A stretch of 64,000 nt of DNA from Patescibacteria group bacterium (GTDB lineage Bacteria > Patescibacteriota > Patescibacteriia > Magasanikbacterales > UBA922), in assembly GCA_018823045.1 (NCBI GenBank), contig JAHJIX010000002.1, forward strand, positions 128,846-192,845. Direction: 5' to 3'. The position numbers were made by a program, and so were the translations under genes. Of this stretch, positions 2,747-18,320 are shown piece by piece. The first letter of the stretch is position 1. Each line of letters begins with the position of its first letter. Below the pieces are notes generated by a model, which did no database searches, was not told the origin of the DNA, and was given only the letters and a program-made list of their open reading frames with translations.

Positions 2747-3817
2747 TTATGTTGCAACATGAAAATAACAGACATCCCCATCACGCACTAGATAGTCCTT
2801 ACCAACCAATTGCATGCAACCTTTTTCTTTTACACCAACCCAACCACTATGATCAACAAAATCTTTCCATGCAGCCACATCTGCTTTAATAAATCCTTTA
2901 ATAAAGTCAGTGTGAATAACCCCCGCTGCATTTGGCGCATCTGTTCCTTGTTTCACTGTCCAAGCACGTGTTTCTTGTACACCAGAAGTAAAATAAGTTA
3001 ACAAATCAAGCAATCCGTATCCTGCGGTAATAATTTTATCAAGTCCTGTTTTTTTAATACCTAAATCTGCCATATATTCCCCGGCTTCTTCGTCTGATAA
3101 TTCAGCAAGTTCTGCTTCAAGTTGTGCGCTAATATATACGTGAGATATCCCTTCTTCTACAACAACTGATTCATTGGCTCCACCTTCACCAACGTTAATA
3201 ATATACATCATTGGCTTTGCAGTAATCAAACAAAGTTGTCTCATAATCAATTGCTCATCACCACTACATTCAAATGTACGTGCAGGTTTACCCGTTTCTA
3301 AATGAGCAAACAAACGCTCAAGAAAATTACGTTCGAGCTCTAATTCTTTGGCAGCGACACCTTTTGATTTTCCTTTTACCGCAACAAGTCGTTTACTCAC
3401 TGTCTGCCAGTCTGCCAAGACTAATTCAAGATTAATAATGTCCGCATCTTCTTTTGGGTCAATTTTGTTATGTACATGAGTAATATTATCTGACTCAAAA
3501 GAGCGAACAACATGAGCAATAGCGTCTACTTCACGAATGTGCGCTAAAAATTTATTTCCCAGTCCCTCTCCCTCAGAAGCCCCTTTTACTAAGCCCGCGA
3601 TATCAACAAACTCAATCGCTGTTGGAATAATTTTGTGTGACCCAGACACTGATGATAATTGTGCCAAACGAACATCAGGGACTTCAACAACTCCGACATT
3701 TGGTTCAATCGTACAAAATGGATAATTTTGTGCATCAGCCTGCTTACTTTTTGTAAGGGCATTAAATAATGTTGACTTTCCAACATTAGGAAGCCCCACA
3801 ATTCCAATTGATAACAT
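2747..3817 (-). CDS. ychF: Redox-regulated ribosome-binding ATPase YchF (Obg family)
   Basis: N-terminal G1 motif [18 protein letters not shown] and a TGS-like C-terminus. Confidence 0.9.
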
Positions 3818-3899: not shown

Positions 3900-6800
3900 T
3901 TATTCGGCAAGAGGAGATTCTGCTGGCGGCGCAGAAGGTTCTTCAGCAGGAGGTGCTGGATCAGGGGCAGGTGGAGGCTCAACAACCTCGGGTTCTGCTG
4001 CTGGTTCTTGAGCCGGTGCAAGCTCTTCTACCACAGGATCAACTGCTTCCTCTGCAGGAAGCTCTTCTGAATCTACTGGTGCCGGATCTTCCTCTGCTGG
4101 TACATCTACGACAGGAGCAGGATCCTCTGGGTTATCCACAGGTTCTTCGACCACAGGATCAACCGCTTCCTCTACTACCGGATCAGCAGATATAGGATCG
4201 GCTGGCTCCTCTGCAGGAAGCTCTTCTGAATCTACTGGTGCCGGATCTTCCTCTGCTGGTACATCTACGACAGGAGCAGAATCCTCTGGGTTATCCACAG
4301 GTTCTTCGACCACAGGATCAACCTGTGGATCAATTATAGGGTCAACTATTTCTACAGGAATGTCACCATCTGTTTTTCTTTCTGCAATAACCACCCAATC
4401 AAAGGTTGAGGTACTTGTTCCATCAAGTAATTCACTGACAGTAAATCCTGTTTCATCTTTTGTGCTCACATAAATACCATTTGCTTTATCTGTCAAAGTA
4501 ACACTCACTTTTATTGACTTTGTTGCATCAATAATGTCTTGGGTTACTTGATCAAAATCAATACGAACTTCTCCACCATCTAGTTGCCCTGATCCTGAAA
4601 AGATATACTCAGTATTTTGTGATTGAAGTGCATAAAGATCTGTATCACCATCTGATGTTGCAATACGAGTAATAAATCGTCCTTGCGCATCAATATTCCA
4701 AACATTATCTTTTGATGTAATGTGAGAAACGTTTACAATACCATATCCATTCATGTTTAAATCTTGGCTCACAGCAATAAGTTGTCCAGAATCATTTTGA
4801 GCAACTGAAATTTCTTGTGTCGACTGATCAAGAGAAATTCCATCGTGCTCTGCAATTTCTAGTACTTCTTGCTTAAGCTCAGCAATAGTTTGATGACGGT
4901 TATTTACCCAACCAGATTTAATAAGTGCCATAATTTTTCCAGTACTTGAACTATTTGCATCAAATGATTCAAGTGCCATTCCAATAATACCGACAACCTT
5001 TGTTCCATCATCTTTTAATGCATCATATTTCATTGCGTGCCCCGGTGTAGAAGCTGTCACAAGCAAATCACCATGTTCAACCGCTCCATTTTCATTACTA
5101 ATTTTAATTGGTACACGACCAACCATAGCCATATCAGCAGTAAATTCAGTCTTACCGTTACCGACAACAATCGTCGGTTGGGTTGAAACAACACCAGCAA
5201 TTGACTGGGCATAGGCTTCATTACTTTTTTTATAACTATCAACATCTTGCGGATCAATAATCATAACATCTCCCGGTTCAGCACCTTCGGTAGGATCAAC
5301 ATCGACACGCTCTGCCAAATCCCCAGGAACACCAGGTGTCCCCATCACTGCACTTGCAGCAAAGAAATTACCCACTGTAGCCACATCACCATTTCCTGCG
5401 ACAGAAAATTTAGACGTTCCATTATTTCTTACTGAGAATAAGAAAGTGGTGCTCGCTGTGGTATCAAAACCATTTGAGGTGTCAAAAATAAATGCCGGCC
5501 CTGTACTTGAACTTATATTTGTCTTAAAGTATGCATTATGAGAAAAAGTCAAGGTATTTGTTGCTGTTGCTGATGCACTATTTGAGTAAAGAGAAAAATC
5601 TCCACCCACAATTAAACCGTTATTAGCAATGTGTAATCCATTTCTGATATTAACACCATTACCAAACTGCGCTTGTCCCATAACACCTAAACGAGAAATT
5701 TCTGCTGAACCAATAGTCGCGTTAGCAATCTTAGCTCCCGATACATCAATAATTTCAATGTCATTATCAGCCTTGGATGCTACATACAAATGATTTCCTG
5801 ATCCAGTAATAGCCACCGGTCCATTTAAATTTGCACTGTCCCCCGAGACACTAATAGCATCAACAAATGTTGGGTTCGTGGAGCTTGCTATATTAATAAC
5901 AACGACAGCATCATCAGTTTCGGCAGTCACATATGCATAGTCTCCTGAGACAAACAAACCACTTATTCCATCTAAGGTAATTGCAGCCCCATCACTATCT
6001 TTTATGTTACCCACAGTATTTGGTCCAAATCCCGCAGGATCAGAAATATCAATAATTGCCATGGCTGCACCCTCCGCCATACCTGTATAAGTGACATACG
6101 CATAAATACCCCTAACAGAAATAGATTTTAATCCCATAAATTCACTCTCGCCCATAAATGAACAAAGCACTGCAGGATTTGCAGGATCAGAAATATCAAT
6201 AATTGCCATGGAACCCATACCAGTTAAAATATAGGCATACTTTCCTTGTACCTCAATATTTTCAGCAGACTCCCATAGATCCAAAGATGTCACAAGTATT
6301 GGATTTGCCGGATCAGACACATCAACGACATGCATTTTCTGATTAACAGAATCAGCAATATATGCATAATTTCCTCGGACTCTTATTCCTTTTAAATCAC
6401 CAAAACTAGCACTATCAAGCAATCCTTTGTGAGCTGGTATACTCGGATCAGAGATATCGATCACTTGTAAGTTCCCAGCATCTGTCACAATATATACATA
6501 GTTCCCAGCAACCTCTAACGCCATAGGGGTTGCAAAACTGGTGCTTCCACTGCCACTCACTATACCACCCACACGTGCTGGATAGCTCGGGTCACTAATA
6601 TTAAAAATTTCTAAACTATTTTCTGTATATGAAACACTGTAGAGTAAATTATCTTGCACTTTTACATCTTGAACACCCGTCAAATATGGTGCACTTGCTC
6701 CACCATCAAGTATTGCAGTTACATGCTCAGCTGCAGACGTTTTCCCAGGAACATACAACAAATCTTCAATCGTGGTTTGCCCAGAAAAATATCCATCGCC

Positions 6801-9800
6801 ATCAACAGCAAATTGATATTGAGGAGAGCTACTATTAATTCCGACATTTCCACTGCCAAAAACCACATTTTGATTATTTGTCGTGTTAATACTTAATAAA
6901 CCTGAACTATCAAGCGTTAGCGCACCACCAGTCATTGAAATTAAACCGCCACTTACATCACCACTTAAATGAAGGGAGCTCGTCCCAATGTGGATTGCGT
7001 TTTCTACAAAAAGCGAATCGCCTACGCCGAGTAAATCATGTACATACATGTCGTCACCATCAAGCGCAAAAGTTGAAGTAGTAATTTGTTCACTTGAATT
7101 ACCTACATAGACATTATTTGCTAAAATCATTTCTCCGCTCACATAACCCGTACCAACAACAGATAAACCATAAGCAGGTGTACTTGTATTAATTCCGACA
7201 TTACCACTTTCATCAATAACAAATCGTTCAGTACCATTGTTGCGGATACTAATCAAGTTACCTGCACTTAATGTGTTTTCTGTATTAAATATAAATGATT
7301 CGGTATTTGTACTATTCACACCTGATTCAAATAGAGCACGGTGAGAAAAATTAAGGGTGTTTGTTGCCACATAACTACTTGTTGCGGTATACAACGCGAT
7401 ATCTCCTCCAACAAGTAAGCCGTTATTTGAAATATGCAGTCCATTATTAATGTATACTCCATCATCAAAACTAGAATCCCCATGAACTTTTAAGCTCCCT
7501 ATTTCTGCAACTCCAATTTCTGCACTACCAATATTTGCTCCAGAAATATCAAAAACATAGAGTGAATTATCTTTCCACCCAGTTACATACATATAATTTC
7601 CAACAAGATCAAAACGCTGCAGTCCAGCACTCTGTTCTACAACGACACCACTTGCTAAATAATTGAAGTCAGATGCGACAACATAACCAAATTCATCCAG
7701 ATTATTTAAATTATTTAGGTTTGAAATAATGATTAATGGATCTGGCAATGCCCCCAAGGACATCTCATAAATACGATTAGCACGCACCTGATAATCTATG
7801 GTTCCAGCTGAAAAATAACTAATAAATGTTGGTAATTGTGGATTTGAAATATCAATAACATTAATAAGACTATTGCTCCCTGTTCCAACATATGCATAAT
7901 TTCCTTCTAAACGAATGGTGTCTGCTCCAACAAGATCACTACCCCCATCACCATTCTCAATTGTTCCAACAGAAGAAATATTAGTAGGATCACTCACATC
8001 TAATATCACCATTGCACTTGACGCTGCAGAAGCAATGTACGCATACTTCCCTCGGACTTCAATATCAGTTGCTCCTGTAAGTAAAGGTTCTTGCGTATAA
8101 TCAAAACTCCCAGCATGTATTGGTGTACCTGGGTTTGAAATATCAAGTACCTCAACTGATTTTGCAGAAGCAGAAACGGCATACAAATACTTTCCTTGCT
8201 GAGTCACTGCTTTTATTTTATCTAATAATGGGCCACTTGCGTTGTGGTAAACTTTAGAAACATGTTGTGGATTTGCTGGATTACTGATATCAATTGTTTC
8301 CATCACATCATTTACTCTCCCGGCAATATACGCATAGTGCCCACTTACCACAAAATCAATAGCATCGTCAAAGTCTGCCCCACCATCTCCATGACTAATT
8401 CCACCTATATACCGTAACGACAATGGATCACTCACATCAATAATAGCAAATGTACTTGTTGCTGTCGGATTGACACCGCCATTACTTAAGACATAAGCAT
8501 AATTTCCTACCACCTGCACTCGTTGTGGTCCACTAAGCAATGCCCCTCCATCACCATGAGCAATTGAATCTCTTACTGAATCAGCTGAAATACTCCCAAA
8601 CATTCCAACGCGCTCAGTAAATGTCGTCGTTGCATTAAATATCGTTGTCGAACTAAATGTTGTCGTTGCCGTAAAAGTGTTCGATCCAGTAAATGATTGC
8701 GTTCCACTAAGAAGCGCCAAATCTGATCCATCATCTAAATCACTCACTGAAATACCCGTCACAGACCCTGTTACAGTAAAGTCTGTTACTGTGGTGGTTG
8801 CTAGACTAGATATTCCCGATACCGTCAAACGATCATCTATAGTTACATCATCACTCACATTTATATCAACAGCTTCCACAAGCCCAGCCCAGCCAACACG
8901 AAATATACTGTCACTCTTATAATGAAGATCTAAAGGATATGTTTTATTGTCTACATTTATAACGGTTGATCCATCTACTACTAATCTATACTGCGGAGAA
9001 GTTGTATTAATTCCGATATTCCCATTTGAATCAATGAGAAACTGACTGGTTCCATTATTTCGCACATGAAAAACATCGCCGCTAGCAACGGTAGTGCTCA
9101 CAAATACAGGAGCTGTAAATGTGCTGGTTGCATTAACCGTAAAAATATCATTAATTGTTGTTGTGTTAAGTGTTGTTGCGCCAGTTACAGCCAATTGCCC
9201 TGTAATATCCACATTACCGAGCATCGAGACATCCCCATCTTCATCAACTCGAAATCGCTGACTTCCGCCAAGTGCAATACCAAATAATGTTTCATTCGCA
9301 TCTGCTGTTGCCGGATTAATATAAATGGTACCACCATCAACAGCGCTCGATTGAGGGTCACCCATAAATGTAAACATGCCATTGGTGTCTGAAATTGGAA
9401 TATATTCTCCAGTTGATGTTACCGCTGCCCCCACACCATTTAAATATCTTGCATTCATTGCAAATGGTGCCGCAGTCAATCTTTTTCTAGGAGAAAGTAT
9501 ATCGCTTCCAACAGTAACTTCTAAAAATAAATCACTATTTCCTGCAAAAATTTGTGGATCAAGTGTGTTATAAGCCGTATCTCCTAAATCAATAGCAAAA
9601 ATTCCAGAAGAAGGAGTAATACTTACCGCAAGAGGAGTGCCCACTGTTCCGCTGGCAGTATATAACGCAGTTCCAGCACTTAAATCGTCATAAATAACAA
9701 ATTTCATTTGCTTTGTACTCGTCACAGCCAATCCCCCTTCAAGTAATTTTCCTTGATAAGTAATTATATTTGGTGGTGCAGTAACTGTTTGCGCAACAGA

Positions 9801-9980
9801 AAAAAACAAGGTGCTCACAGCAAAAACAAAAAATAAAAATATACCAAATATATATGTATATGGTTCAATCTTTTTAAATAATCTTAAAAACGTATCTTTC
9901 ACAGACAGTATTTTAATATGTATGCTCACCAAACAATGAGCCATATATAGTATATCACACTTTGCACTAAAAAAGATCAA
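3900..9980 (-). CDS. Giant (2026 aa) secreted or surface protein with LVIVD-type beta-propeller repeats, tail-fibre-like GNVGINTTSP motifs and an acidic Pro-rich C-terminal tandem tail
   Basis: Single open frame of 6.08 kb. The N-terminus has a signal-peptide-like hydrophobic segment (KKIEPYTYIFGIFLFFVFAVSTLFFSVAQ). Repeated blocks of the form G(N/K)YAY(V/I)... (V/I)(I/V)D(I/V)S(D/N)P (LVIVD-like) occur at least nine times. The motifs GN(V/I)GINT(T/S)SPQY..VDG and TL(T/N)FSH(N/R)A each recur three or more times. The alternative start is the ATG at 9944. Confidence 0.7.
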   Translation of the reverse strand: MIFFSAKCDILYMAHCLVSIHIKILSVKDTFLRLFKKIEPYTYIFGIFLFFVFAVSTLFFSVAQTVTAPPNIITYQGKLLEGGLAVTSTKQMKFVIYDDLSAGTALYTASGTVGTPLAVSITPSSGIFAIDLGDTAYNTLDPQIFAGNSDLFLEVTVGSDILSPRKRLTAAPFAMNARYLNGVGAAVTSTGEYIPISDTNGMFTFMGDPQSSAVDGGTIYINPATADANETLFGIALGGSQRFRVDEDGDVSMLGNVDITGQLAVTGATTLNTTTINDIFTVNATSTFTAPVFVSTTVASGDVFHVRNNGTSQFLIDSNGNIGINTTSPQYRLVVDGSTVINVDNKTYPLDLHYKSDSIFRVGWAGLVEAVDINVSDDVTIDDRLTVSGISSLATTTVTDFTVTGSVTGISVSDLDDGSDLALLSGTQSFTGSNTFTATTTFSSTTIFNATTTFTERVGMFGSISADSVRDSIAHGDGGALLSGPQRVQVVGNYAYVLSNGGVNPTATSTFAIIDVSDPLSLRYIGGISHGDGGADFDDAIDFVVSGHYAYIAGRVNDVMETIDISNPANPQHVSKVYHNASGPLLDKIKAVTQQGKYLYAVSASAKSVEVLDISNPGTPIHAGSFDYTQEPLLTGATDIEVRGKYAYIASAASSAMVILDVSDPTNISSVGTIENGDGGSDLVGADTIRLEGNYAYVGTGSNSLINVIDISNPQLPTFISYFSAGTIDYQVRANRIYEMSLGALPDPLIIISNLNNLNNLDEFGYVVASDFNYLASGVVVEQSAGLQRFDLVGNYMYVTGWKDNSLYVFDISGANIGSAEIGVAEIGSLKVHGDSSFDDGVYINNGLHISNNGLLVGGDIALYTATSSYVATNTLNFSHRALFESGVNSTNTESFIFNTENTLSAGNLISIRNNGTERFVIDESGNVGINTSTPAYGLSVVGTGYVSGEMILANNVYVGNSSEQITTSTFALDGDDMYVHDLLGVGDSLFVENAIHIGTSSLHLSGDVSGGLISMTGGALTLDSSGLLSINTTNNQNVVFGSGNVGINSSSPQYQFAVDGDGYFSGQTTIEDLLYVPGKTSAAEHVTAILDGGASAPYLTGVQDVKVQDNLLYSVSYTENSLEIFNISDPSYPARVGGIVSGSGSTSFATPMALEVAGNYVYIVTDAGNLQVIDISDPSIPAHKGLLDSASFGDLKGIRVRGNYAYIADSVNQKMHVVDVSDPANPILVTSLDLWESAENIEVQGKYAYILTGMGSMAIIDISDPANPAVLCSFMGESEFMGLKSISVRGIYAYVTYTGMAEGAAMAIIDISDPAGFGPNTVGNIKDSDGAAITLDGISGLFVSGDYAYVTAETDDAVVVINIASSTNPTFVDAISVSGDSANLNGPVAITGSGNHLYVASKADNDIEIIDVSGAKIANATIGSAEISRLGVMGQAQFGNGVNIRNGLHIANNGLIVGGDFSLYSNSASATATNTLTFSHNAYFKTNISSSTGPAFIFDTSNGFDTTASTTFLFSVRNNGTSKFSVAGNGDVATVGNFFAASAVMGTPGVPGDLAERVDVDPTEGAEPGDVMIIDPQDVDSYKKSNEAYAQSIAGVVSTQPTIVVGNGKTEFTADMAMVGRVPIKISNENGAVEHGDLLVTASTPGHAMKYDALKDDGTKVVGIIGMALESFDANSSSTGKIMALIKSGWVNNRHQTIAELKQEVLEIAEHDGISLDQSTQEISVAQNDSGQLIAVSQDLNMNGYGIVNVSHITSKDNVWNIDAQGRFITRIATSDGDTDLYALQSQNTEYIFSGSGQLDGGEVRIDFDQVTQDIIDATKSIKVSVTLTDKANGIYVSTKDETGFTVSELLDGTSTSTFDWVVIAERKTDGDIPVEIVDPIIDPQVDPVVEEPVDNPEDSAPVVDVPAEEDPAPVDSEELPAEEPADPISADPVVEEAVDPVVEEPVDNPEDPAPVVDVPAEEDPAPVDSEELPAEEAVDPVVEELAPAQEPAAEPEVVEPPPAPDPAPPAEEPSAPPAESPLAE
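4052..4322. repeat. Two tandem copies of a ~151-bp repeat inside the 3' end of the giant gene
   Basis: A stretch of about 118 bp is near-identical between the two copies (CTGCAGGAAGCTCTTCTGAATCTACTGGTGCCGGATCTTCCTCTGCTGGTACATCTACGACAGGAGCAG...). It encodes the duplicated acidic Pro-rich tail PVVEEPVDNPED(S/P)APVVDVPAEEDPAPVDSEELPAEE. Confidence 0.8.
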
Positions 9981-10250
9981 TCTTACTTTTTTTGAACTGT
10001 GGAAAAAATAAAAAAGTCCCCGGAATAATCAATCTTATTTTTTTCGCCATCACAGCAAAGAAAAAATGATAGATTACACATGGGGACAAGTTTGCACTCA
10101 ATAAGCACAATGTGGGAATGGGCAAAAACCACATATACTCTTAGAGTGCGTTTTGGCCTGGGTGGGGCCGTTTCATTTTTCCACAAGAAGGTCAAATGAG
10201 ATTACACTATACCTTTTTTATTTATTTTAGTCAACTATTTTTCTATATAT

Positions 10251-10278: not shown

Positions 10279-12951
10279 TTATTTCAATTCACCCCAATCT
10301 TTTCCAATATGTGCTTCTACTTTTATTGGCACATCCATATCAACAACACACTCCATTTCTTTTTCTACCAAACGTGCAATTTTTTCTGCTAACGACTCTT
10401 TCACCTCAAGCACTATTTCATCGTGCACCTGTAATAACATTTTTACTTTATCCCCAAATGGCGCAATCTTTTTGTACACAGCAATCATAGCCAACTTCAT
10501 CATATCTGCAGCCGTTCCCTGCACGGGCATATTAATTGCCATACGCTCACCAGAAGTCCTAATCTGTCTGTTTTTTGCATGTAATTCTGGCACATACCTT
10601 CGTCGCCCCAAGAGCGTTTCAACATAACCACTTTCTTTTGCTTCTTCAAGCACAGTGTCTAAATATGTCTTTACTCCAGAAAAACCAGCAAAATAGGCAT
10701 CAATAAATTCTTGAGATTGCACTACTGAAAGACCTGTACGCGCAGACAAGCCATATGCTCCCATACCGTAAAGTACACCAAAATTAATTTCTTTTGCAGA
10801 GCGACGCAATTCTGGTGTAACATCGGCGATACCTACCCCATGAATAATTGCTGCGGTTGCCGTGTGTATATCCTCATCTCGATGAAAAATTTCTAACATT
10901 TTTTTATCTTTAGACAAAGAAGCCACAACACGAAGTTCGATTTGCGAATAATCCGCTGCAATAAATACTGTTCCTGAGGCAGCAACAAATGCCTTTCTAA
11001 TTTTTTTCCCCGCTTCAGTGCGGATTGGAATATTTTGTAAATTTGGATCTGAACTTGATAAACGCCCAGTAGCGGTCACCGACTGATTAAATGTTGTGTG
11101 TATTCTGCCTGTTTTTTTATTTACCAAAGTGGGTAACACATCGATATATGTATTTTGTAATTTTGACAACTCTCTAAATGTTTCAATATATTCAATGATT
11201 TCATGCTCCCCCCTTAATTTTTCTAACTCAGCGGCAGCAGTTGAATACCCTGTTTTTCCTTTTTTTATTCCACGAGTTGGCAAAGCTAATTCTACAAATA
11301 AAATTTCACGCAACTGTACAGATGAGGCCACATTAAACTCTTTACCGGCAAGCTGATAAATGTTTTGTGTTAATTGATCAAGTTGCTTATGAATCTCAAC
11401 CGACATATCTGATAAATATGGGGCGTCAATTGAAATACCATGCAACTCCATTTGTGCAAGTACTGGAATCAAAGCCATTTCTACCTCTTGAAATAAAGAT
11501 TCTTGTTTTGTTCTTTTTAATGCTGTTTGATAATGATGATACAGCTCAAATACATATTGATATTGTTTTGCAAGTCCTTCAATATCAGCACCAAAGAGTG
11601 TTTGCTGTTTTTGTTCAACTATCTGAATATCAAGCTCTCGCAAAATAAGAGCAGGCAAATCATGAGCACGACTGTTTGCTTTTACAATATATGACGCAAT
11701 CATAATATCAAATATGTGTGTAGGTGCTTGTTGTTTTTCTTGCAAAATAACTTTCACCAATTCTTTTACATTATGCCCTACCACAGATATATTTGAGTTA
11801 GTCAGATGCGCAAAAACGCGTGCGCGATCCGCTGGTTTACAATAAGAAAAATCAAGATAATGCATCCCACTTTTTTCAAAAACAAAAATCATACCCTCAA
11901 TGTAACCACTCACAACTCCCCCATCAACAACTTCTTTACAAACAAAGACAGTCTCTTGTTCTAATAAAGATAAAAATATTTCGACATTTTCTGCACTCAC
12001 TCGTGACACTGTTTTTTCTATGTGCTCTTTGCGCACTTTCTTTTCACCCGGTAAACGCTTTATAAGAGAAAAAAACTCAAAACGCCGAAACGCTTCTTCT
12101 AGTTTTTTATAATTAATTACAGTGCTTACTGTTTTTTCAATATCAAAATTCAATGAAGGAACAAATTGATCAATCTTAGCAAGTGTATAACTCATTTCTG
12201 CGCTTTCTTTGCCATCAATAATTTTTTCTCTCATTTTTTTACTCAGCACAGAAACAAGTATTGAAGCCTCATCTTGTATTTGTCTATATATTTCTCCCAC
12301 GGTCTTTGCATGATCTAATATTATTTTTGCCGTTTTGTCTCCCACCCCAACAATACCAGGAATATTATCTGAGCTATCCCCACGTAAGGCCTTATATGTC
12401 ACCAACAATTCTGGTCCAAAACCAAGCACTTCTTTAACTTTTTTAGGATCAAATAACAAAAAATTGCTCATTCCTGTTTTTAATAGATATACATTTGTTT
12501 GTATACTCACCAACTGCAAGAGATCTTTATCTCCCGTAACAATAATACACTGAGTATCAGAATACTTTTCTTCAATTTCCTTCACAATAGTTCCAATAAC
12601 ATCATCAGCTTCGTATCCCTTTTTGCTATATATAACAACTCCAGCATCTTTCAACACTTCTTGAATAAGTGGAATTTGATTATACAAGTCGTCATCAGCT
12701 TTTTCTCGTGTGGCCTTATATTCAGTATAGACTTCATTTCGAAATGTTCCACCACCAACATCAAAACTCACCACAAAGTGTGTAGGTTCTATATCACTCA
12801 ATACTTTAAGTAATATAGAAAAAAAACCATACACAGCATTCACCATCAGCCCATCTTCAGTAGTAAATGCAGGAATAGCATGATACGCACGATGAATTAA
12901 TGCATGTCCATCAACAATAACAAATTTTTTCGAAAAAGAATGTTCTTTCAT
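10279..12951 (-). CDS. polA: DNA polymerase I
   Basis: Has the 5'-3' exonuclease N-terminus (FVIVDGHALIHRAYHA) and polymerase motifs RRSAKEINFGVLYGMGAYGLS and LLQVHDEIVLEV. The start is taken at the ATG at 12951, downstream of the PBP terminator hairpin. Confidence 0.95.
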   Translation of the reverse strand: MKEHSFSKKFVIVDGHALIHRAYHAIPAFTTEDGLMVNAVYGFFSILLKVLSDIEPTHFVVSFDVGGGTFRNEVYTEYKATREKADDDLYNQIPLIQEVLKDAGVVIYSKKGYEADDVIGTIVKEIEEKYSDTQCIIVTGDKDLLQLVSIQTNVYLLKTGMSNFLLFDPKKVKEVLGFGPELLVTYKALRGDSSDNIPGIVGVGDKTAKIILDHAKTVGEIYRQIQDEASILVSVLSKKMREKIIDGKESAEMSYTLAKIDQFVPSLNFDIEKTVSTVINYKKLEEAFRRFEFFSLIKRLPGEKKVRKEHIEKTVSRVSAENVEIFLSLLEQETVFVCKEVVDGGVVSGYIEGMIFVFEKSGMHYLDFSYCKPADRARVFAHLTNSNISVVGHNVKELVKVILQEKQQAPTHIFDIMIASYIVKANSRAHDLPALILRELDIQIVEQKQQTLFGADIEGLAKQYQYVFELYHHYQTALKRTKQESLFQEVEMALIPVLAQMELHGISIDAPYLSDMSVEIHKQLDQLTQNIYQLAGKEFNVASSVQLREILFVELALPTRGIKKGKTGYSTAAAELEKLRGEHEIIEYIETFRELSKLQNTYIDVLPTLVNKKTGRIHTTFNQSVTATGRLSSSDPNLQNIPIRTEAGKKIRKAFVAASGTVFIAADYSQIELRVVASLSKDKKMLEIFHRDEDIHTATAAIIHGVGIADVTPELRRSAKEINFGVLYGMGAYGLSARTGLSVVQSQEFIDAYFAGFSGVKTYLDTVLEEAKESGYVETLLGRRRYVPELHAKNRQIRTSGERMAINMPVQGTAADMMKLAMIAVYKKIAPFGDKVKMLLQVHDEIVLEVKESLAEKIARLVEKEMECVVDMDVPIKVEAHIGKDWGELK

Positions 12952-12978
12952 AGTAGCTCTTATTGTACACTGATATAG

Positions 12979-13011
12979 AAAAAAAACCAACCAGCGCTGG
13001 TTGGTTTTTTG
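12979..13011. terminator. Intrinsic terminator 3' of the PBP gene (AACCAACCAGC/GCTGGTTGGTT flanked by A and T runs)
   Basis: An 11-bp perfect stem between the PBP stop and the polA start. Confidence 0.8.
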
Positions 13012-13024
13012 TATTTTATTGTAT

Positions 13025-16000
13025 TTATTCAACTTCTGAATCAGACTCTTTAGCAGGATCAACTAATAATACCATACTATCTTTTACAATACTTCCATTT
13101 TTTGTTGTTAATACTCCTTCTAATCGCCAACGTCCAATTTCTAGTTCACTTACTGCAATACTAATCGCTTGAGAAATGTTTTCTGCATCATATAACTCTA
13201 TTTCTACATCATCTTTTTTTGCTGTTACAGTTACATGATTTACCTCTTCTGGTTTATAAATTGAAGCATGCACATTTATCGGCAAATGATTTATTTCAAC
13301 ACTTTGTGCATTAAAATTCCAAATAAGTGCAGATTCCTCTCCGTCTTGTGGCGCAAAAACAAATGGAATTATTTCTTCAAGCACATTACCAACATCATCT
13401 TTAATTATTACGGTTAAATTATGCTGCCCTGTAGACAAAGTACTAGCCTCATAATGTAAATTAAACGGATGCGCTGTTTCTGTTCCAACAAGTCTTTCGT
13501 CAATATAATACTTCACTTCTGCTACTCCACGTGGTGCAGTAAAACGCATGTCTGTATCAATCACAGAAGAAAAAATTGCGCTCCCTGGTGAGGGATACAC
13601 GGCTTCCACTGTCGGAATAAAGGACAGTGCATATGCATCATCCACACCAGCAGGAGGTTCCTCAAAAGAAATTTCCCAATCAGGATTTTCTTCTTTTCTC
13701 CGCTCAATCCAACTTTGAATTGCCGCTTCCCAATTTTGATATTGTGAATCTTGTTCTGGATTTTCTGGGAGATCTCCTTGTGGATCAGATTTTGTAATAT
13801 AATGTAAAATTGAATGTGCTTGTGTATATGTTCGCTCAACAATATATTTTTCAGGGGTTGAGCTCGTTGCGATATTACCGGTTACTTTGTTCACACGTAA
13901 AGTAATAGCCCCACCTTCTGATCCCATCAAAACTGGCTTTTGCGTATTTGGCATAACCATCGTATCAAATGACTGCACAGGCGTGCCTTCGAGGGCGTTT
14001 CTCATAAAATTATTCCAAATTGGGGCAGCCACCCGACTACCACCATATCCACGTGTCATTGGTGTATTGTCTGTATTCCCTACCCATACACCAGCAACTA
14101 AACTTGGCGTATACCCAACGGTCCAGGCATCAACATAATAATTGGTTGTTCCTGTTTTAACAGCCACTGGACGACCTGGTAATGTGAGAACACCTCCAGC
14201 ACCAAATAAATATGCACGAGATGCATCATCACTTAAAACATCTGAAATCATTGCTGCAGTATTTTTTTGAATCACACGCTCTTTTTTTGATTCTTTCCAC
14301 TCCTGCAAAACAGTCCCATCTGCGTCTTCTACTCGTAAAATACTAACAGGAGCCACTCGCTCTCCTCCGTTTGCAAACACACAAAATGCAGCAACATGTT
14401 CAAGCAGGGTAACTTCTCCACCACCCAACACAAGAGACAAACCAAAGTCTCCATCACTCAAGGTGGTATATCCAAGTTTTTCAGCAAACTCAATACCAAA
14501 TTTTTCTCCAATTAAATAAAGCGCTTTTACCGCAGGAATATTTAAAGATCCTTGCAGCGCTTGACGAATGGTTACTGGCCCACGCTCTTTAAAATCATAA
14601 TTTGTTGGTTCATATGAACGAGCACCTACACCAAAATTAGTCACAACATCAAATAAAATAGTCTGAGGAGTGTATCCAATTTCAAATGCAGCTGCATACA
14701 CAATCGGCTTAAAAGAAGAACCTGGCTGCCTACGCCCTTGTGTTGCCACATTAAATTGTCCTGAAATATCTTGATCAAAAAAATCTCTTGAACCAACCAA
14801 AGACATGATGTGTCCATTGTCTGGGTTCATCGCAACTAAACTCGTATTGTCAGCATTAGCATCGGCAAAACGCTTTTCACTTTCTTCAGCTACGGCAACT
14901 TCAGCTTTTTCTTGCATATTCCAATCAAGCGTAGTTATTACACGAAGTCCCCCTGCCCCCACTTGTTGTTCACCATATTCTTGGACTAATTGTTCTTTTA
15001 CATACAATACAAAATGCGGCGCATGAATATTTGAAACATTTTGCACAACATGCAATTCTTCTGCTTGTGCACTATTTTTTTCTTCTTCAGAAATATATCC
15101 TTCTGCAAACAAACGCCTCAAAACAAAATCTCGACGCTGTTTAAACAACTCAGGATTATTTAAAAAGATAGTTGGTGCCTGAGGAAGACCAGCAAGTGCG
15201 GCCCCCTCTGAAAGAGTTAAGTCTCCGACGTCTTTGCCAAAATAACTTTGGGCTGCAGATTGAATACCATAGTTTGTTGATCCATATGGAATTTCATTAA
15301 AATAAATTTGTAAAATTTGATCTTTCGTATACGCACGCTCTAATTTAATCGCTAAAATAAATTCTTTTACTTTTCTCATGACACTCCGCTCATTTGTCAA
15401 AATGGCATTTTTTACTAACTGCTGTGTGAGTGTTGACGTTCCTTTTACTTTCCAATCACGAAATGGAGCCATAACAAATGCCCGAATAATACTCAACGGT
15501 CGCACACCCCAATGTTCATAAAATACTTTGTCTTCGGTTGCTATAACCCCCTGTACCACAAAATCTGGGATTTCTTCTAGCTCAACTAAAGTTCTTTTTT
15601 CATCAGAATAAATTTCATATAATAAATGTTCTCCCGTTCTATCATAAATTTTTGTACTCTGAGCAATTTGTCGATCAGTTAATTTATTTGGATCAGGTAA
15701 ATCACGACTCCCGAAGGCAAAAATAATGGTTACCATCACAAAACCAACGACCCCTAAAATAATACTTGACCACCAAAAAAGTTTCCACAAACTTTTTCCC
15801 ATCTGTGTATATCTTTTCCACCCCCAACGGAGTAACCTCAATGGAAATAATAATACAAAAACAAGCATGACTCCAAGACTTTTAAGCAAAATTGTACTTA
15901 TCCGACGCCAAGCCGGTCTGTCTTCCGATTCACCCGCATGTTCATATCTTGGTTGTTTTTTCTCTAAAAATTGTGTATCCTTTTTTACGTACCCATACGA

Positions 16001-16048
16001 TCGCTTCTGCCGATTGTCCATAGATGGATGTTTATAGTATTTAAACAA
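13025..16048 (-). CDS. Class A penicillin-binding protein (glycosyltransferase GT51 plus transpeptidase) with a long C-terminal extension
   Basis: N-terminal TM helix. GT51 motifs ATEDKVFYEHWGV and RAYTKDQILQIYFNEIPYG are present, with transpeptidase motifs STFKP and KTGT. The extra C-terminal region is about 350 aa. Confidence 0.9.
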   Translation of the reverse strand: MFKYYKHPSMDNRQKRSYGYVKKDTQFLEKKQPRYEHAGESEDRPAWRRISTILLKSLGVMLVFVLLFPLRLLRWGWKRYTQMGKSLWKLFWWSSIILGVVGFVMVTIIFAFGSRDLPDPNKLTDRQIAQSTKIYDRTGEHLLYEIYSDEKRTLVELEEIPDFVVQGVIATEDKVFYEHWGVRPLSIIRAFVMAPFRDWKVKGTSTLTQQLVKNAILTNERSVMRKVKEFILAIKLERAYTKDQILQIYFNEIPYGSTNYGIQSAAQSYFGKDVGDLTLSEGAALAGLPQAPTIFLNNPELFKQRRDFVLRRLFAEGYISEEEKNSAQAEELHVVQNVSNIHAPHFVLYVKEQLVQEYGEQQVGAGGLRVITTLDWNMQEKAEVAVAEESEKRFADANADNTSLVAMNPDNGHIMSLVGSRDFFDQDISGQFNVATQGRRQPGSSFKPIVYAAAFEIGYTPQTILFDVVTNFGVGARSYEPTNYDFKERGPVTIRQALQGSLNIPAVKALYLIGEKFGIEFAEKLGYTTLSDGDFGLSLVLGGGEVTLLEHVAAFCVFANGGERVAPVSILRVEDADGTVLQEWKESKKERVIQKNTAAMISDVLSDDASRAYLFGAGGVLTLPGRPVAVKTGTTNYYVDAWTVGYTPSLVAGVWVGNTDNTPMTRGYGGSRVAAPIWNNFMRNALEGTPVQSFDTMVMPNTQKPVLMGSEGGAITLRVNKVTGNIATSSTPEKYIVERTYTQAHSILHYITKSDPQGDLPENPEQDSQYQNWEAAIQSWIERRKEENPDWEISFEEPPAGVDDAYALSFIPTVEAVYPSPGSAIFSSVIDTDMRFTAPRGVAEVKYYIDERLVGTETAHPFNLHYEASTLSTGQHNLTVIIKDDVGNVLEEIIPFVFAPQDGEESALIWNFNAQSVEINHLPINVHASIYKPEEVNHVTVTAKKDDVEIELYDAENISQAISIAVSELEIGRWRLEGVLTTKNGSIVKDSMVLLVDPAKESDSEVE

Positions 16049-16064
16049 AGTTCCCCCTCAGTAT

Positions 16065-16751
16065 TTGAAGGAGTCTCACTATAGAGAATATCCTATAATT
16101 AACAAAATTTCAAGCTTCTATATTTTTTCCCATATGTATATCCCCTACACTTCGACACTCATTCGCCAACAGACACTTCATCATGCAGGACTTAGTGCAT
16201 TTATTATCATAACCCTTCTAGGGTCCCTTGGTCGTCCACAAATAACACAAACCGTAGAAATTTCTTATCAAGAGGTATTCCAAAAACAGCAATTTCCAAT
16301 AGCTGAAATTATGAATGCCTCAACCAGTCACACATTTTTTGCAACCGCCTATTCAAGTGACTTTTTTCAAACTGATGCAACACCATTTATTCCTGCAAAT
16401 GGGATTGACTACCGCAATATGATGAAAAAACAAGGGTACGTAGCAGCAATTGCAACAAATGATTTACCTCTTGGCACCCAAATTGCAATTCCAGTACAAG
16501 AATTACCCGATTTATTCACACAATCAACTCAAATTCCATCTGAACGTATTATTCTTGATGATAAAAAAACAGAGGTAATCCTTTTTACCGTTACAGATAG
16601 AATGAACGCAAAATTTACAGGAAAATCGCGTATAGATATTTATGTCGCTATTTCTCTAGAAGACGGAACCATTGACCAAAGAAGTTCTCGTAGTGTGGCG
16701 CGATTATTCGGAAGTAAGCGTCTAACAGCAGCGATAGTACAATTTAATTAA
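16065..16751 (+). CDS. 3D-domain (MltA-like, lytic transglycosylase-related) secreted protein
   Basis: Contains FFATAYS...GYVAAIATNDLPLGTQIAIP...FTVTDRMNAKFTGKSRIDIYV, matching the conserved TAY...VAVD...LPLGT...DTGGAI...IDI pattern of 3D domains. The true start is uncertain. Confidence 0.55.
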   Translation: MKESHYREYPIINKISSFYIFSHMYIPYTSTLIRQQTLHHAGLSAFIIITLLGSLGRPQITQTVEISYQEVFQKQQFPIAEIMNASTSHTFFATAYSSDFFQTDATPFIPANGIDYRNMMKKQGYVAAIATNDLPLGTQIAIPVQELPDLFTQSTQIPSERIILDDKKTEVILFTVTDRMNAKFTGKSRIDIYVAISLEDGTIDQRSSRSVARLFGSKRLTAAIVQFN

Positions 16752-16870
16752 ATCCACCAAAACAATATACTAAAACATTCTATGTAATACAAAATGTTTT
16801 ATTTCATAAAAACAAAAAAGTTTTACTCTTGAAAAATTTTTGATTTTAAGATATAATTGCACACGGTAAT

Positions 16871-16945
<75 letters not shown>

Positions 16946-16948
16946 CAT

Positions 16949-16982
16949 AAACACAGGATTATCTATCCTGTGTTTATTTTCG
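16949..16982. terminator. Intrinsic terminator hairpin (AAACACAGGAT/ATCCTGTGTTT followed by ATTTT)
   Basis: Perfect 11-bp inverted repeat immediately 3' of tRNA-Cys. It overlaps the dnaN stop and could act bidirectionally. Confidence 0.7.
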
Positions 16983-18314: not shown

Positions 18315-18320
18315 GTATTG

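What the first reader, a model, noticed from the sequence alone, without database searches (positions are those of the whole stretch)
3900..9980. 2026-aa giant surface protein built from two tandem halves with LVIVD-type propeller repeats
This single gene occupies 9.5% of the window. Reading the translation, the N-terminus looks like a signal peptide. Two successive large segments follow. Each contains the fibre-like motifs GN(V/I)GINT(T/S)SPQY..VDG and TL(T/N)FSH..(Y/L)F, and then four to five G(N/K)YAY(V/I)...(I/V)ID(I/V)S(D/N)P blocks of the LVIVD beta-propeller type. A roughly 170-aa C-proximal domain (GDVMIIDPQD...AGVVSTQPTIVVGNGKTEF...HGDLLVTASTPGHAMK) was not assigned. The extreme C-terminus is an acidic Pro/Glu/Asp/Val-rich tail, unusual for an anchoring region. 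Such giant proteins often mediate host or cell attachment in small-genome episymbionts.
Basis: partly seen in the sequence, partly recalled or inferred. Interest (0 to 1): 0.6.

Follow-up and report, generated by a model that had tools for sequence, protein, structure and literature searches.

The report
Phage-like surface fibre of an ultrasmall bacterium
This 2,000-residue gene from a Patescibacteria (CPR) chromosome most likely encodes a trimeric, phage-tail-fibre-like surface filament related to the prey-grabbing "MAT" fibres of Bdellovibrio, carrying two LVIVD beta-propellers in its shaft. Its previously unassigned C-terminal domain looks like a self-cleaving assembly chaperone of the phage phi29 type.

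Summary
A single minus-strand ORF (3900-9980) encodes a 2,000-2,014 aa secreted protein with two diverged tandem halves (31% identity, E 1.6e-53). It has strong LVIVD repeats (Pfam E 7.9e-65), arranged as 6 clear plus 1 degenerate blade, then 7 blades.

1. The "fibre motifs" are the capping loops of the trimeric beta-helix solved in Bdellovibrio MAT fibres (Bd3182 E 2.4e-6, Bd2133 E 1.4e-4). The N-terminal domain is homologous to that of Bdellovibrionia fibres (hhalign 94%).
2. The unassigned C-proximal domain is a divergent Peptidase_G2 / phi29 gp12 "autochaperone" (beta-tulip fold). Its D-L-A-E motif (D1542, E1545) sits exactly where gp12 is cut and is invariant in relatives. I predict self-cleavage at G1541|D1542.
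3. The protein belongs to a large Patescibacteria family with conserved ends (N-domain; G2-like domain, Ig-like domain, acidic Pro/Glu tail) and a variable middle of 0 to about 8 propellers.

The surrounding genes are housekeeping genes near oriC, not a prophage. The identical protein occurs under three NCBI accessions.

Trimerisation, cleavage and host binding are inferred, not shown. I rate this a new variant of a known kind, of moderate interest.

The parts
3900..9980 (-). Whole ORF as listed (first TTG to stop; stop codon 3900-3902). Likely true start is ATG 9942-9944 or GTG 9900-9902.
   Evidence: The NCBI 2000-aa product is identical from the GTG start.
9792..9902 (-). Signal-peptide-like N-terminus (aa 15-51): a basic n-region, a hydrophobic core at aa ~30-48, then S-V-A|Q. 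It could instead be an uncleaved signal anchor.
   Evidence: Only hydrophobic segment of the protein. Sequence. In relatives the N-domain starts at median residue 41.
9390..9791 (-). Conserved N-terminal beta-sandwich domain (aa 52-185, core 58-157; 'ITYQGKL...F.IYD...LYTA...G.F...LG...PRKRL...P(Y/F)A.N'), inferred to be the cell-proximal attachment domain.
   Evidence: AF2 pLDDT 82. No significant PDB fold match. hhalign to Bdellovibrionia fibre N-termini: probability 94% (E 1e-7) and 77% (E 2e-5). Present in nearly all family members.
8550..9389 (-). Stalk segment 1 (aa 186-465) with capping loop GNIGINTTSPQYRLVV at aa 308-323 (nt 8976-9023). It also has a Thr-rich hexapeptide-periodic stretch (18-nt period, nt 8615-8695).
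   Evidence: Aligns to stalk 2 in the internal duplication.
7497..8549 (-). LVIVD beta-propeller 1 (aa 466-816): six clear blades plus one degenerate blade (aa ~715-771).
   Evidence: Pfam PF08309. Blade HMM. Colinear alignment with propeller 2.
6684..7496 (-). Stalk segment 2 (aa 817-1087) with two capping loops at aa 914-929 (nt 7158-7205) and aa 1032-1047 (nt 6804-6851).
   Evidence: phmmer to solved MAT fibres: 8ojn_C E 2.4e-6 and 8ond_A (bd2133) E 1.4e-4, aligned on the capping loop. I inferred that 8ojn_C is Bd3182 from its length, molecule name and entry codes; this was not confirmed. Weak HylP hit below the Pfam cutoff.
5694..6683 (-). LVIVD beta-propeller 2 (aa 1088-1417): seven blades.
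5322..5693 (-). Stalk segment 3 (aa 1418-1541), ending at the predicted mature C-terminus ...GTPGVPG.
   Evidence: Repeats the post-propeller segment of stalk 2. Conserved as 'stalk3' immediately before the G2-like domain in relatives.
5310..5321 (-). D1542-L-A-E1545, the predicted autoproteolytic motif. The predicted scissile bond is G1541|D1542.
   Evidence: Aligned on the S|DFAE site of phi29 gp12; PDB 3gqh_A, the separately solved 163-aa C-terminal domain, begins at this D. D and E are invariant in 56/56 aligned relatives. 254 of 265 domain copies carry the motif. It occurs only once in this protein.
4899..5321 (-). Peptidase_G2-like / phi29 gp12-D4-like beta-tulip 'autochaperone' domain (aa 1542-1682).
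   Evidence: AF2 pLDDT >90. Foldseek PDB: beta-tulip decoration proteins and pre-mature gp12 3suc. Foldseek BFVD: E 6e-11 to 1e-9, rmsd ~3.3 A over ~145 columns, 24-30% identity, including 'Preneck appendage protein barrel'. Profile versus PDB sequences E 0.005. hhalign probability 70%, E 3.9e-5. PF11962 hits relatives.
4710..4898 (-). Linker (aa 1683-1745): one predicted helix (aa ~1687-1700) followed by a low-confidence stretch.
4371..4709 (-). C-terminal Ig-like beta-sandwich (aa 1746-1858), separable from the G2-like domain.
   Evidence: AF2 pLDDT >90. Pfam FlgD_ig in 13/64 relatives, best E 2.9e-5. Precomputed PF26696 in two distant relatives. Occurs alone after an S74 domain (P0092) or directly after the beta-helix (Woesearchaeota L005).
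3903..4370 (-). Acidic Pro/Glu/Val/Ala/Asp-rich tail (aa 1859-2014). It contains a 114-nt direct repeat (nt 4206-4319 and 4047-4160, 112/114 identical).
   Evidence: Compositionally similar tails of 45-240 aa in close relatives.
9945..10234 (-). Upstream region: promoter-like TTGACT-17-TATAGT (10206-10234) and a 261-nt structured leader (9945-10205).
   Evidence: promoter-like sites are no more frequent than in shuffled sequence. (MFE -73.6 kcal/mol, z = -5.56, 0/200 shuffles fold as well). No Rfam family.

Best explanation
The gene encodes a chromosomal, Sec-exported, homotrimeric surface fibre of a Patescibacteria (CPR) bacterium. It belongs to the same phage-derived lineage as the 'mosaic adhesive trimer' (MAT) fibres of Bdellovibrio.

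**Proposed architecture, from the N-terminus**
- A signal peptide.
- A conserved ~130-aa beta-sandwich that holds the fibre on the producer's surface.
- A shaft of intertwined triple beta-helix segments marked by capping loops.
- Two seven-bladed LVIVD propellers per chain, inserted in-line in the shaft. That gives six per trimer, in two tiers, and these serve as the ligand-binding modules.
- A C-terminal pro-region: a Peptidase_G2 / phi29-gp12-type beta-tulip autochaperone, an Ig-like domain, and an acidic Pro/Glu tail.

**Proposed mechanism**
1. After export, the G2-like domains of three chains associate and template folding of the interdigitated beta-helix from the C-terminal end.
2. The conserved Asp1542/Glu1545 pair then cuts the chain at G1541|D1542.
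3. The ~470-aa pro-region is shed, or remains bound non-covalently.
4. The mature fibre binds a surface structure of the host or partner cell through the propellers.

**Shown here:** domain composition and order; homology of the stalk, the N-domain and the G2-like domain; invariance of the D..E motif; the family architecture; the housekeeping context.

**Inferred:** trimer formation, cleavage, orientation on the cell, and binding to a host.
For: **Propellers and duplication**
- LVIVD E 7.9e-65.
- Internal duplication E 1.6e-53.
- 6+1 and 7 blades.

**Stalk**
- Matches the solved trimeric MAT beta-helices 8ojn_C (E 2.4e-6) and Bd2133 8ond_A (E 1.4e-4), aligned on the capping loop.
- The loop consensus and the family definition are in PMC10769870.

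**N-domain**
- hhalign probability 94% and 77% to the N-termini of Bdellovibrionia fibre ORFs recovered with a Bd2133 fragment.
- Confident beta-sandwich model with no PDB homologue, as reported for the MAT N-domain.

**G2-like domain**
-.
- Intermediates P0079 ('GADFAEYF') and P0090 ('DYAEYF', PF11962 at 29.4 bits, above the cutoff of 25) bridge to phi29.
- D/E invariant in 56/56 relatives; motif present in 254/265 domain copies.
- The phi29 D4 tandem beta-tulip is described as an autochaperone required for trimerisation (10.1101/216911) and as cleaved off after folding (PMC3357383).
- In relative P0092 a Peptidase_S74 chaperone occupies the same slot.

**Family architecture and distribution**
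- Conserved ends and a variable middle across ~90 relatives.
- 15,590 cluster representatives share the C-terminal module.

**Context and integrity**
- Housekeeping genes near oriC, no phage genes.
- Identical protein under three NCBI accessions.
Against: - No experiment or multimer model supports trimerisation of this protein.
- Pfam PF11962 does not hit this protein itself, even at E 10. The sequence-level links to phi29 are marginal (E 0.005; hhalign 70%) and cover only the first ~80 residues.
- From my own memory of Xiang et al. 2009 (not held in the library), release of the phi29 gp12 domain is reported to need ATP, which is absent outside the cell.
- 62 of 228 relatives carry two tandem G2-like domains, and an Ig-like domain plus tail is conserved downstream. 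That is odd for a mere disposable pro-peptide.
- The N-domain comparison used Bdellovibrionia MAG proteins, not the characterised HD100 MATs, which the genome scan did not recover.
- LVIVD propellers have no experimentally defined ligand.
- The lifestyle of this particular bacterium is unknown.
Confidence: 0.62

Rival explanations
1. Same fibre, but the G2-like beta-tulip domain is a permanent, non-cleaving trimerisation and tip module, like phage decoration proteins or the non-S74 tips of MATs. The Ig-like domain and acidic tail would then form the functional distal end, or a cell-wall-interacting end.
For: - The best PDB fold matches are non-proteolytic beta-tulip cement/decoration trimers, and Pfam cement/decoration families hit some relatives.
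- The Ig-like domain and tail are conserved downstream.
- Tandem copies occur in 62 of 228 proteins.
- Non-S74 MAT tips are stable caps.
- No ATP is available extracellularly for a phi29-like release (ATP dependence recalled from memory).
Against: - The D-x-A-E motif at the exact gp12 cleavage position is invariant (56/56; 254/265 copies). That is hard to explain for a purely structural domain.
- Decoration proteins lack this motif (from my own knowledge, not tested here).
- An S74 protease-chaperone occupies the same slot in a relative.
Confidence: 0.25
2. A structural envelope or S-layer-associated protein that shapes or protects the cell surface, not a host- or partner-binding adhesin.
For: - LVIVD repeats were first described in archaeal and bacterial cell-surface proteins of unknown role (PMC2447325).
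- The gene sits among core housekeeping genes next to a PBP1 gene.
- No ligand is known.
Against: - Homology is to projecting, adhesive fibres (MATs and phage tail fibres), not to lattice-forming proteins.
- The cargo in the family middle is highly variable between conserved ends. This is the signature of diversifying recognition proteins, the argument used for MATs.
Confidence: 0.12
3. A tailspike-like enzyme: the propellers are catalytic (a depolymerase or lyase acting on a host envelope polymer), as in the K1F endosialidase, whose propeller sits on a beta-helix stalk with a cleaved chaperone.
For: - The overall plan (propeller, then triple beta-helix, then a C-terminal self-cleaving chaperone) resembles the endosialidase; that comparison is from my own knowledge.
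- There are weak sub-threshold propeller hits to lactonase and SBP56.
- The phage relatives of the chaperone domain are often depolymerases ('EPS depolymerase', 'peptidase G2').
Against: - The only significant propeller match is LVIVD, which has no known catalytic activity.
- The lactonase and SBP56 hits are below the Pfam cutoffs (20.9 vs 21.7 bits; 17.8 vs 34 bits).
- No PDB sequence homologue of the propellers was found.
Confidence: 0.08
4. A prophage or tailocin tail fibre, or a chimeric mis-assembly of repeats.
For: Several parts have phage relatives. The tail contains a near-identical 114-nt repeat.
Against: - The flanking genes are YchF, PolA, PBP1, DnaN and DnaA, and the rest of the window is housekeeping, with no phage genes.
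- The protein has a signal peptide.
- The two halves are only 31% identical, so they cannot be collapsed or chimerised by an assembler.
- The identical protein occurs under three NCBI accessions.
- There are dozens of full-length relatives with the same end-to-end architecture.
Confidence: 0.03

Closest known systems
MAT (mosaic adhesive trimer) fibres of Bdellovibrio bacteriovorus, e.g. Bd3182 and Bd2133 (Caulton et al. 2024, PMC10769870)
   Same: - A signal peptide followed by a conserved ~130-aa beta-rich N-domain.
- A long stalk with the V-G-(I/V)-(G/N)-..-P-...-L capping loops. There is direct sequence similarity to the solved Bd3182 and Bd2133 beta-helices and profile similarity of the N-domain to Bdellovibrionia fibres.
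- A C-terminal chaperone or cap.
- A mosaic family architecture.
   Different: - The host organism is a Patescibacteria bacterium, a group not listed among MAT-bearing taxa in the paper's Table S3.
- LVIVD propellers are threaded in-line within the shaft. None occur in the 35 Bd2133-related loci examined.
- The C-terminus is neither S74 nor any described non-S74 tip. It is a G2-type autochaperone plus an Ig-like domain plus an acidic tail.
- Both ends are conserved and the middle varies, whereas in MATs the tip varies.
Phage phi29 pre-neck appendage gp12, C-terminal D4 autochaperone (MEROPS/Pfam Peptidase_G2, PF11962; PDB 3suc, 3gqh)
   Same: - A beta-tulip fold placed directly C-terminal to a trimeric beta-helix.
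- A D-(F/L)-A-E motif at the domain's first residue, where gp12 is cut.
- Matching conserved blocks: GV(I/V)S...G and G(R/Q)(V/I)..(K/R)(V/I).
   Different: - Very divergent: PF11962 does not hit this protein.
- It lacks the ~50-aa insertion of gp12.
- It is encoded by a cellular gene with a signal peptide, so it would act outside the cell where there is no ATP.
- It is followed by a further domain and a tail, whereas in gp12 it is the extreme C-terminus.
K1F/K1E endosialidase tailspike with a Peptidase_S74 intramolecular chaperone (comparison from my own knowledge; mentioned)
   Same: The overall plan is similar: a beta-propeller 'cap' on a triple beta-helix stalk, assembled by a C-terminal self-cleaving chaperone.
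   Different: - Six-bladed sialidase propeller versus seven-bladed LVIVD.
- Ser-Lys S74 chaperone (SDxxxK) versus the Asp/Glu G2 type. There is no PF13884 hit and no conserved Ser/Lys here.
- A single unit versus a duplicated unit.
LVIVD-repeat cell-surface proteins of archaea and bacteria (Pfam PF08309; Adindla et al. 2004, PMC2447325)
   Same: Strong LVIVD repeats (E 7.9e-65) in a secreted surface protein.
   Different: Here the propellers are modules inside a tail-fibre-like trimeric scaffold with a self-processing C-terminus.

Membership tests
MAT superfamily (Caulton 2024) | A signal peptide immediately followed by a conserved ~130-aa beta-rich N-terminal domain | tested here: met
   Signal-like N-terminus. 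AF2 beta-sandwich at aa 58-157. hhalign to the N-termini of Bdellovibrionia fibres L019 (94%, E 1e-7) and L013 (77%, E 2e-5). Caveat: the comparators are MAG proteins that carry Bd2133-like repeats, not the characterised HD100 proteins.
MAT superfamily (Caulton 2024) | A beta-helical stalk with the capping-loop motif (V-G-G/N-pi-x-x-P-x-x-x-L) | tested here: met
   Three loops at aa 308, 914 and 1032. phmmer alignment onto the capping loops of solved 8ojn_C (E 2.4e-6) and Bd2133 (E 1.4e-4).
MAT superfamily (Caulton 2024) | Homotrimer along the whole length | not testable with these tools
   Only monomer AF2 was available. Trimerisation is inferred from homology to trimeric beta-helices and to a trimerising autochaperone.
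MAT superfamily (Caulton 2024) | C-terminus is either an S74 chaperone-protease (SDxxxK) or an alternative cap | tested here: met
   No S74 domain (no PF13884 hit). The protein therefore falls in the non-S74 class, with a cap type not described in the paper.
MAT superfamily (Caulton 2024) | Displayed on the cell surface and used to handle another cell | not testable with these tools
   Needs localisation and binding experiments.
Peptidase_G2 / phi29 gp12 D4 autochaperone (PF11962) | Match to the Pfam model at its gathering score | tested here: not met
   No PF11962 hit for this protein, even at E 10. Relatives do hit: 7/64 (best E 4.8e-5), and P0090 at 29.4 bits versus the cutoff of 25. I therefore file it as a divergent relative, not a Pfam-defined member.
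Peptidase_G2 / phi29 gp12 D4 autochaperone (PF11962) | Beta-tulip fold of the D4 domain | tested here: met
   Foldseek PDB: beta-tulip decoration proteins (E 6e-4 and above) and 3suc (probability 1.0). BFVD: 'Preneck appendage protein barrel' at E 1.5e-9; top hits have rmsd ~3.3 A over ~145 columns. Fold description in 10.1101/216911.
Peptidase_G2 / phi29 gp12 D4 autochaperone (PF11962) | An Asp...Glu (D-x-x-E) motif at the cleavage site, which is the first residue of the domain | tested here: met
   DLAE aligns on DFAE of gp12, and 3gqh_A starts at that Asp. The motif is invariant in 56/56 relatives and present in 254/265 copies. That these two residues are catalytic is from my memory of MEROPS G2 / Xiang 2009, not from a tool.
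Peptidase_G2 / phi29 gp12 D4 autochaperone (PF11962) | Located directly C-terminal to a trimeric beta-helix that it helps to fold | tested here: met
   Domain order. The chaperone function itself was not tested.
Peptidase_G2 / phi29 gp12 D4 autochaperone (PF11962) | Autoproteolysis after trimerisation | not testable with these tools
   Requires expression and SDS-PAGE or mass spectrometry.
LVIVD repeat family (PF08309) | Tandem ~42-aa LVIVD repeats above the Pfam cutoff | tested here: met
   214.4 bits versus the cutoff of 20.2, 12 matched stretches. 13 blades by my own HMM plus one degenerate blade.
Peptidase_S74 intramolecular chaperone | PF13884 domain with a Ser-Lys dyad (SDxxxK) | tested here: not met
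   No hit. The residue before the Asp is mostly Gly, and the sixth position is variable.
Sortase-anchored (LPXTG) wall protein | C-terminal LPXTG motif, hydrophobic segment and basic tail | tested here: not met
   No LPXTG-like motif. No C-terminal hydrophobic segment. The tail is acidic.

The most novel reading that the evidence does not exclude
Patescibacteria, and apparently some DPANN archaea, share with predatory Bdellovibrio a phage-derived trimeric-fibre toolkit for seizing other cells. This lineage has turned it into a modular 'beads-on-a-shaft' organelle. Variable numbers of LVIVD propellers are threaded between beta-helix segments, and the whole fibre is assembled outside the cell by an ATP-independent G2-type autochaperone that then cuts itself off. 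This would be the host-recognition device of a large group of uncultured episymbionts.
Probability: 0.3. Interest if true: 0.75.

Novelty: new variant of a known kind. Interest (0 to 1): 0.55.

Why it matters
How ultrasmall Patescibacteria find and hold their hosts is largely unknown beyond type IV pili and a few adhesins in cultured Saccharibacteria (PMC10633639).

If this family is the CPR counterpart of Bdellovibrio MAT fibres, it gives three things:
- **A concrete candidate.** It is a sequence-recognisable host-recognition apparatus: conserved ends that can be used to mine genomes, and a variable middle that should track host range.
- **A cheap biochemical prediction.** Self-cleavage at G|DLAE should be abolished by D1542 or E1545 mutation.
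- **A domain assignment at scale.** It gives an identity to a very large uncharacterised domain family. The two-domain C-terminal module has 15,590 cluster representatives; I did not count the G2-like domain separately. The G2-like domain emerges as a second widespread type of fibre autochaperone in cellular organisms, alongside S74.

Tried and rejected
**Libraries and records that were unavailable**
- The look-up of encoding contigs had no record for the exact protein.
- Xiang et al. 2009 (PMC2692858) is not held, and a search for MEROPS G2 literature found nothing. The catalytic role of the Asp/Glu pair and the ATP-dependent release are therefore from my memory.

**Searches that came back empty or short**
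- tblastn of the C-proximal domain against GenBank phages found nothing. The phage link only appeared through structure and profiles.
- The genome scan with a Bd2133 fragment did not recover B. bacteriovorus HD100 itself, only relatives at 71% identity or less. The family N-domain HMM alone did not hit the Bdellovibrionia ORFs at E < 0.01; only the profile comparison did.
- A metagenome scan for a 20-mer of the upstream leader found nothing.

**Readings rejected**
- S74 chaperone: no Ser/Lys dyad.
- Sortase anchoring: no LPXTG motif.
- Prophage origin: housekeeping context.
- Repeat mis-assembly: the halves are only 31% identical.
- NCBIfam hits (sarcinarray, NlpE, lactonase) and the Pfam hits other than LVIVD were far below their cutoffs and were disregarded.
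- PHROG 22523 (E 4.5e-27, unknown function) only reflects the propeller.

Full report

Yes. The window holds one uninterrupted minus-strand ORF at 3900-9980, 2026 aa counted from the first TTG. The more likely starts are ATG 9944 (2014 aa, the numbering used here) or GTG 9902. The GTG start gives the 2000-aa product that NCBI holds as 'hypothetical protein KKG22_03920 [Patescibacteria group bacterium]' under three accessions: MBU0661296.1, MBU1721291.1 and MBU1901001.1.

- **LVIVD repeats.** Pfam LVIVD (PF08309) matches at E 7.9e-65 with 12 stretches.
- **Two halves.** Splitting the protein shows one long colinear alignment of aa 270-860 with aa 876-1461: 31% identity, E 1.6e-53. At that divergence there is no DNA repeat, so the duplication is old and cannot be an assembly chimera.
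- **Blade count.** A blade HMM finds six clear blades in half 1, plus a 57-aa gap that aligns with a blade of half 2. It also finds seven blades in half 2, including one that was not used to train the HMM (E 4.8e-9).
- **N-terminus.** The only strongly hydrophobic segment is aa ~30-50. It is preceded by Lys/Arg residues and followed by S-V-A|Q.
- **Tail.** It contains P 23%, E 19.5%, V 16%, A 14% and D 12% (pI ~4). It has no LPXTG motif and no hydrophobic end.

**2. Context**

The neighbours are YchF (2747-3817), DNA polymerase I (10279-13062), a class A PBP (13025-16048), DnaN and DnaA. The GC skew changes sign near 18 kb, which marks oriC. The rest of the window is also housekeeping: trigger factor, IleRS-like synthetase, GyrA, and others. 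There are no phage genes and no paralogue of the fibre in the window. This is a core chromosomal gene of a CPR bacterium. Its closest relatives are labelled Candidatus Magasanikbacteria, Nomurabacteria and similar.

**3. What the 'fibre motifs' are**

The inter-propeller segment matches two solved structures by plain phmmer: 8ojn_C (E 2.4e-6) and 8ond_A 'bd2133' (E 1.4e-4).

- 8ojn_C is named 'cell wall surface anchor family protein' and is 152 aa long. I inferred that it is Bd3182 residues 632-782 from its length, its molecule name and the entry codes adjacent to 8ond; this identity was not confirmed.
- The alignment is centred on ...RFVIDESGNVGINTSTPAYGLSVVGTG... against ...RMTIDDVGRVGVGTTAPTSALHVIGTG....

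These are the tip fragments of the Bdellovibrio bacteriovorus 'mosaic adhesive trimer' (MAT) fibres (Caulton et al. 2024, PMC10769870). That paper defines the family by four features:
- a signal peptide;
- a conserved ~130-aa beta-rich N-domain with no PDB homologue, thought to sit on the predator surface;
- an intertwined trimeric beta-helix with 'capping loops' (V-G-G/N-pi-x-x-P-x-x-x-L);
- a C-terminus that is either a self-cleaving S74 chaperone or another cap.

It occurs three times, at aa 308, 914 and 1032.

**4. The N-domain**

An AF2 model built on 50 relatives gives a confident beta-sandwich (pLDDT 82; core aa 58-157). Foldseek finds no significant PDB match for it.

To test homology with MATs, I scanned one genome per species with the Bd2133 fragment printed. 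HD100 itself was not recovered. The scan did return 35 loci, including several Bdellovibrionia MAGs. It also returned many CPR groups (Kaiser-, Sacchari-, Woese-, Campbell-, Gracili-, Adlerbacteria, Paceibacterota, Levyibacteriota) and DPANN archaea.

The N-termini of two complete Bdellovibrionia ORFs have the same ITY(Q/E)G.(L/I)Y...F.F...LYSE...G.F...G...P(Y/S)A pattern. They match the profile of this family's N-domain at 94% probability (L019, E 1e-7) and 77% (L013, E 2e-5). I take the MAT N-domain criterion as met, with the caveat that the comparators are uncharacterised MAG proteins.

**5. The unassigned C-proximal domain**

The last 333 structured residues have no Pfam hit, but an exhaustive HMMER scan finds 15,590 cluster representatives at E <= 1e-3. 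The module splits into two separable domains. AF2 on 64 relatives gives pLDDT 88.

*Structure matches for the first domain (aa 1542-1682)*
- Against the PDB, it matches beta-tulip capsid decoration/cement proteins (Pam3, XM1, BB1, TW1) and the pre-mature phi29 appendage gp12 (3suc).
- Against predicted viral structures, it matches many tail-fibre-like proteins at E 6e-11 to 1e-9, rmsd ~3.3 A over ~145 columns and 24-30% identity. Two of these are named 'preneck appendage protein (barrel)'.

*Sequence matches*
- A profile of the family hits phi29 gp12 residues 685-743 (E 0.005).
- It also hits the separately crystallised 163-aa C-terminal domain 3gqh_A (E 0.011). That chain begins exactly at the Asp of 'DFAEYFES', onto which this protein's 'DLAERVD' is aligned.
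- hhalign gives 70% probability, E 3.9e-5.
- Pfam Peptidase_G2 ('IMC autoproteolytic cleavage domain', PF11962) covers the phi29 domain (E 2e-78). It also hits 7 of 64 family members and relative P0090 above its cutoff.
- P0079 ('GADFAEYF') and P0090 ('DYAEYF...IIGMLGQVAAKVSAENG') are clear intermediates between the phage domain and this one.

*Motif conservation*
- The Asp and Glu of the motif are invariant in 56/56 aligned relatives.
- They are present in 254 of 265 domain copies across 228 proteins.
- The motif occurs only once in this protein, at D1542/E1545.

*What is known about the phage domain*
The phi29 D4 domain is a tandem beta-tulip 'autochaperone', without which the tailspike does not trimerise (10.1101/216911). 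It is cleaved off after folding (PMC3357383). That the Asp/Glu pair is catalytic and that release needs ATP is my recollection of Xiang et al. 2009 and MEROPS G2, which I could not read.

In relative P0092, a Peptidase_S74 chaperone sits in the same slot before the same last domain.

*Conclusion*
The domain is a divergent G2-type intramolecular chaperone, with predicted self-cleavage at G1541|D1542.

*The second domain (aa 1746-1858)*
It is an Ig-like sandwich: FlgD_ig hits 13/64 relatives, best E 2.9e-5. It also occurs without the G2-like domain, for example at the end of a 449-aa Woesearchaeota fibre-like protein.

**6. Family architecture**

Mapping the eight segments of this protein onto ~120 relatives shows conserved 'bookends' and a variable middle.
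- **Conserved ends:** the N-domain at one end; one or two G2-like domains, the Ig-like domain and a Pro/Glu/Asp/Val/Ala-rich tail of 45-240 aa at the other.
- **Variable middle:** none to about eight propeller-sized LVIVD matches and various numbers of stalk segments. Total lengths run from ~1,100 to ~3,500 aa.

The window's protein is the two-propeller version, produced by duplication of a stalk-plus-propeller unit. None of the 35 Bd2133-related loci has LVIVD propellers. The MAT paper's survey lists neither CPR members, nor propellers, nor a G2-type end. 'Mosaic adhesive trimer' appears in only six papers in the library, none about CPR.

**7. Mechanism proposed**

The proposed mechanism is set out under best explanation. 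In brief:
1. Sec export.
2. Trimer nucleation by the C-terminal G2-like domains.
3. C-to-N folding of the interdigitated beta-helix, with two tiers of three propellers.
4. Autocleavage at G|DLAE.
5. Presentation of a fibre anchored by its N-domain (or by an uncleaved signal anchor) that binds a partner-cell surface through the propellers.

The conservation of the C-terminal module is then explained by assembly, not anchoring. That also accounts for the 'unusual' acidic tail.

The main uncertainties are:
- whether cleavage happens at all outside the cell;
- why an Ig-like domain and tail are conserved after the chaperone;
- what tandem chaperone domains mean;
- what the propellers bind.

**8. 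Verdict**

The added value here has three parts:
- the family identification (MAT-like trimeric fibre);
- the assignment of the unknown domain (G2-type autochaperone with a predicted cleavage site);
- the recognition of a large CPR family with conserved ends and modular LVIVD cargo.

All components are known kinds. The combination, the host lineage and the extracellular setting of a G2 chaperone are new variants. Interest is moderate (0.55). The finding gives testable handles on host recognition by uncultured episymbionts, but no function has been demonstrated.

Noticed in passing
window 9945-10234 (minus strand): The ~300-nt gap between polA and the fibre gene holds a promoter-like TTGACT-17-TATAGT and a 261-nt leader. 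The leader folds far better than shuffled sequence (MFE -73.6 kcal/mol, z -5.56, 0/200 shuffles fold as well). It contains a GC-rich patch unusual for this 36% GC genome. There is no Rfam match, and an exact 20-mer was not found in the metagenome collection. It could be a structured 5' UTR or a small RNA.
   Followed up: partly
window 4047-4160 and 4206-4319 (minus strand): The acidic tail contains a near-perfect direct DNA repeat: 112/114 nt identical, period 159 nt, encoding DPVVEEPVDNPED(S/P)APVVDVPAEEDPAPVDSEELPAEE twice. This looks like a recent duplication. The copy number could be mis-estimated by short-read assembly.
   Followed up: partly
L035 2683-4380 and L001 2164-3900 (loci): In two other fibre genes (a Levyibacteriota MAG and a MAG labelled Gammaproteobacteria), the same N-domain lies ~420 aa into the ORF. 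It is preceded by two tandem phage-integrase SAM-like (core-binding) domains: Pfam Phage_int_SAM_1 at E 9e-23 and 5e-18. A DNA-binding-type cytoplasmic module fused to an extracellular fibre is unexpected.
   Followed up: partly
L005 5698-7044 (Candidatus Woesearchaeota archaeon): A 449-aa DPANN archaeal protein has an N-terminal hydrophobic segment, four MAT-type capping loops (VGIGTT.P...L) and the same C-terminal Ig-like domain as this protein (E 1e-9), but no G2-like domain. MAT-like fibres therefore seem to be shared by bacterial and archaeal episymbiont lineages.
   Followed up: partly
P0092 residues 917-1158 (relative): A relative carries a Peptidase_S74 chaperone sequence (SD-type, '...ERLKTNIENM...YGFIAQEVE...') in the slot occupied here by the G2-like domain, followed by the same Ig-like domain and tail. 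This looks like a swap between the two known kinds of fibre autochaperone.
   Followed up: no
window 16000-20000: dnaA (18439-19815) and dnaN (16974-18107) lie on the minus strand, and the GC-skew sign changes near 18 kb. The window therefore spans the replication origin, and the giant gene lies ~8 kb from dnaA.
   Followed up: no
window 8615-8695: An 18-nt-period tandem array (4.5 copies, 68% matches) encodes a Thr-rich hexapeptide-periodic stretch (...TGSNTFTATTTFSSTTIFNATTTFT...) in stalk segment 1. This is probably a run of short beta-strands.
   Followed up: no
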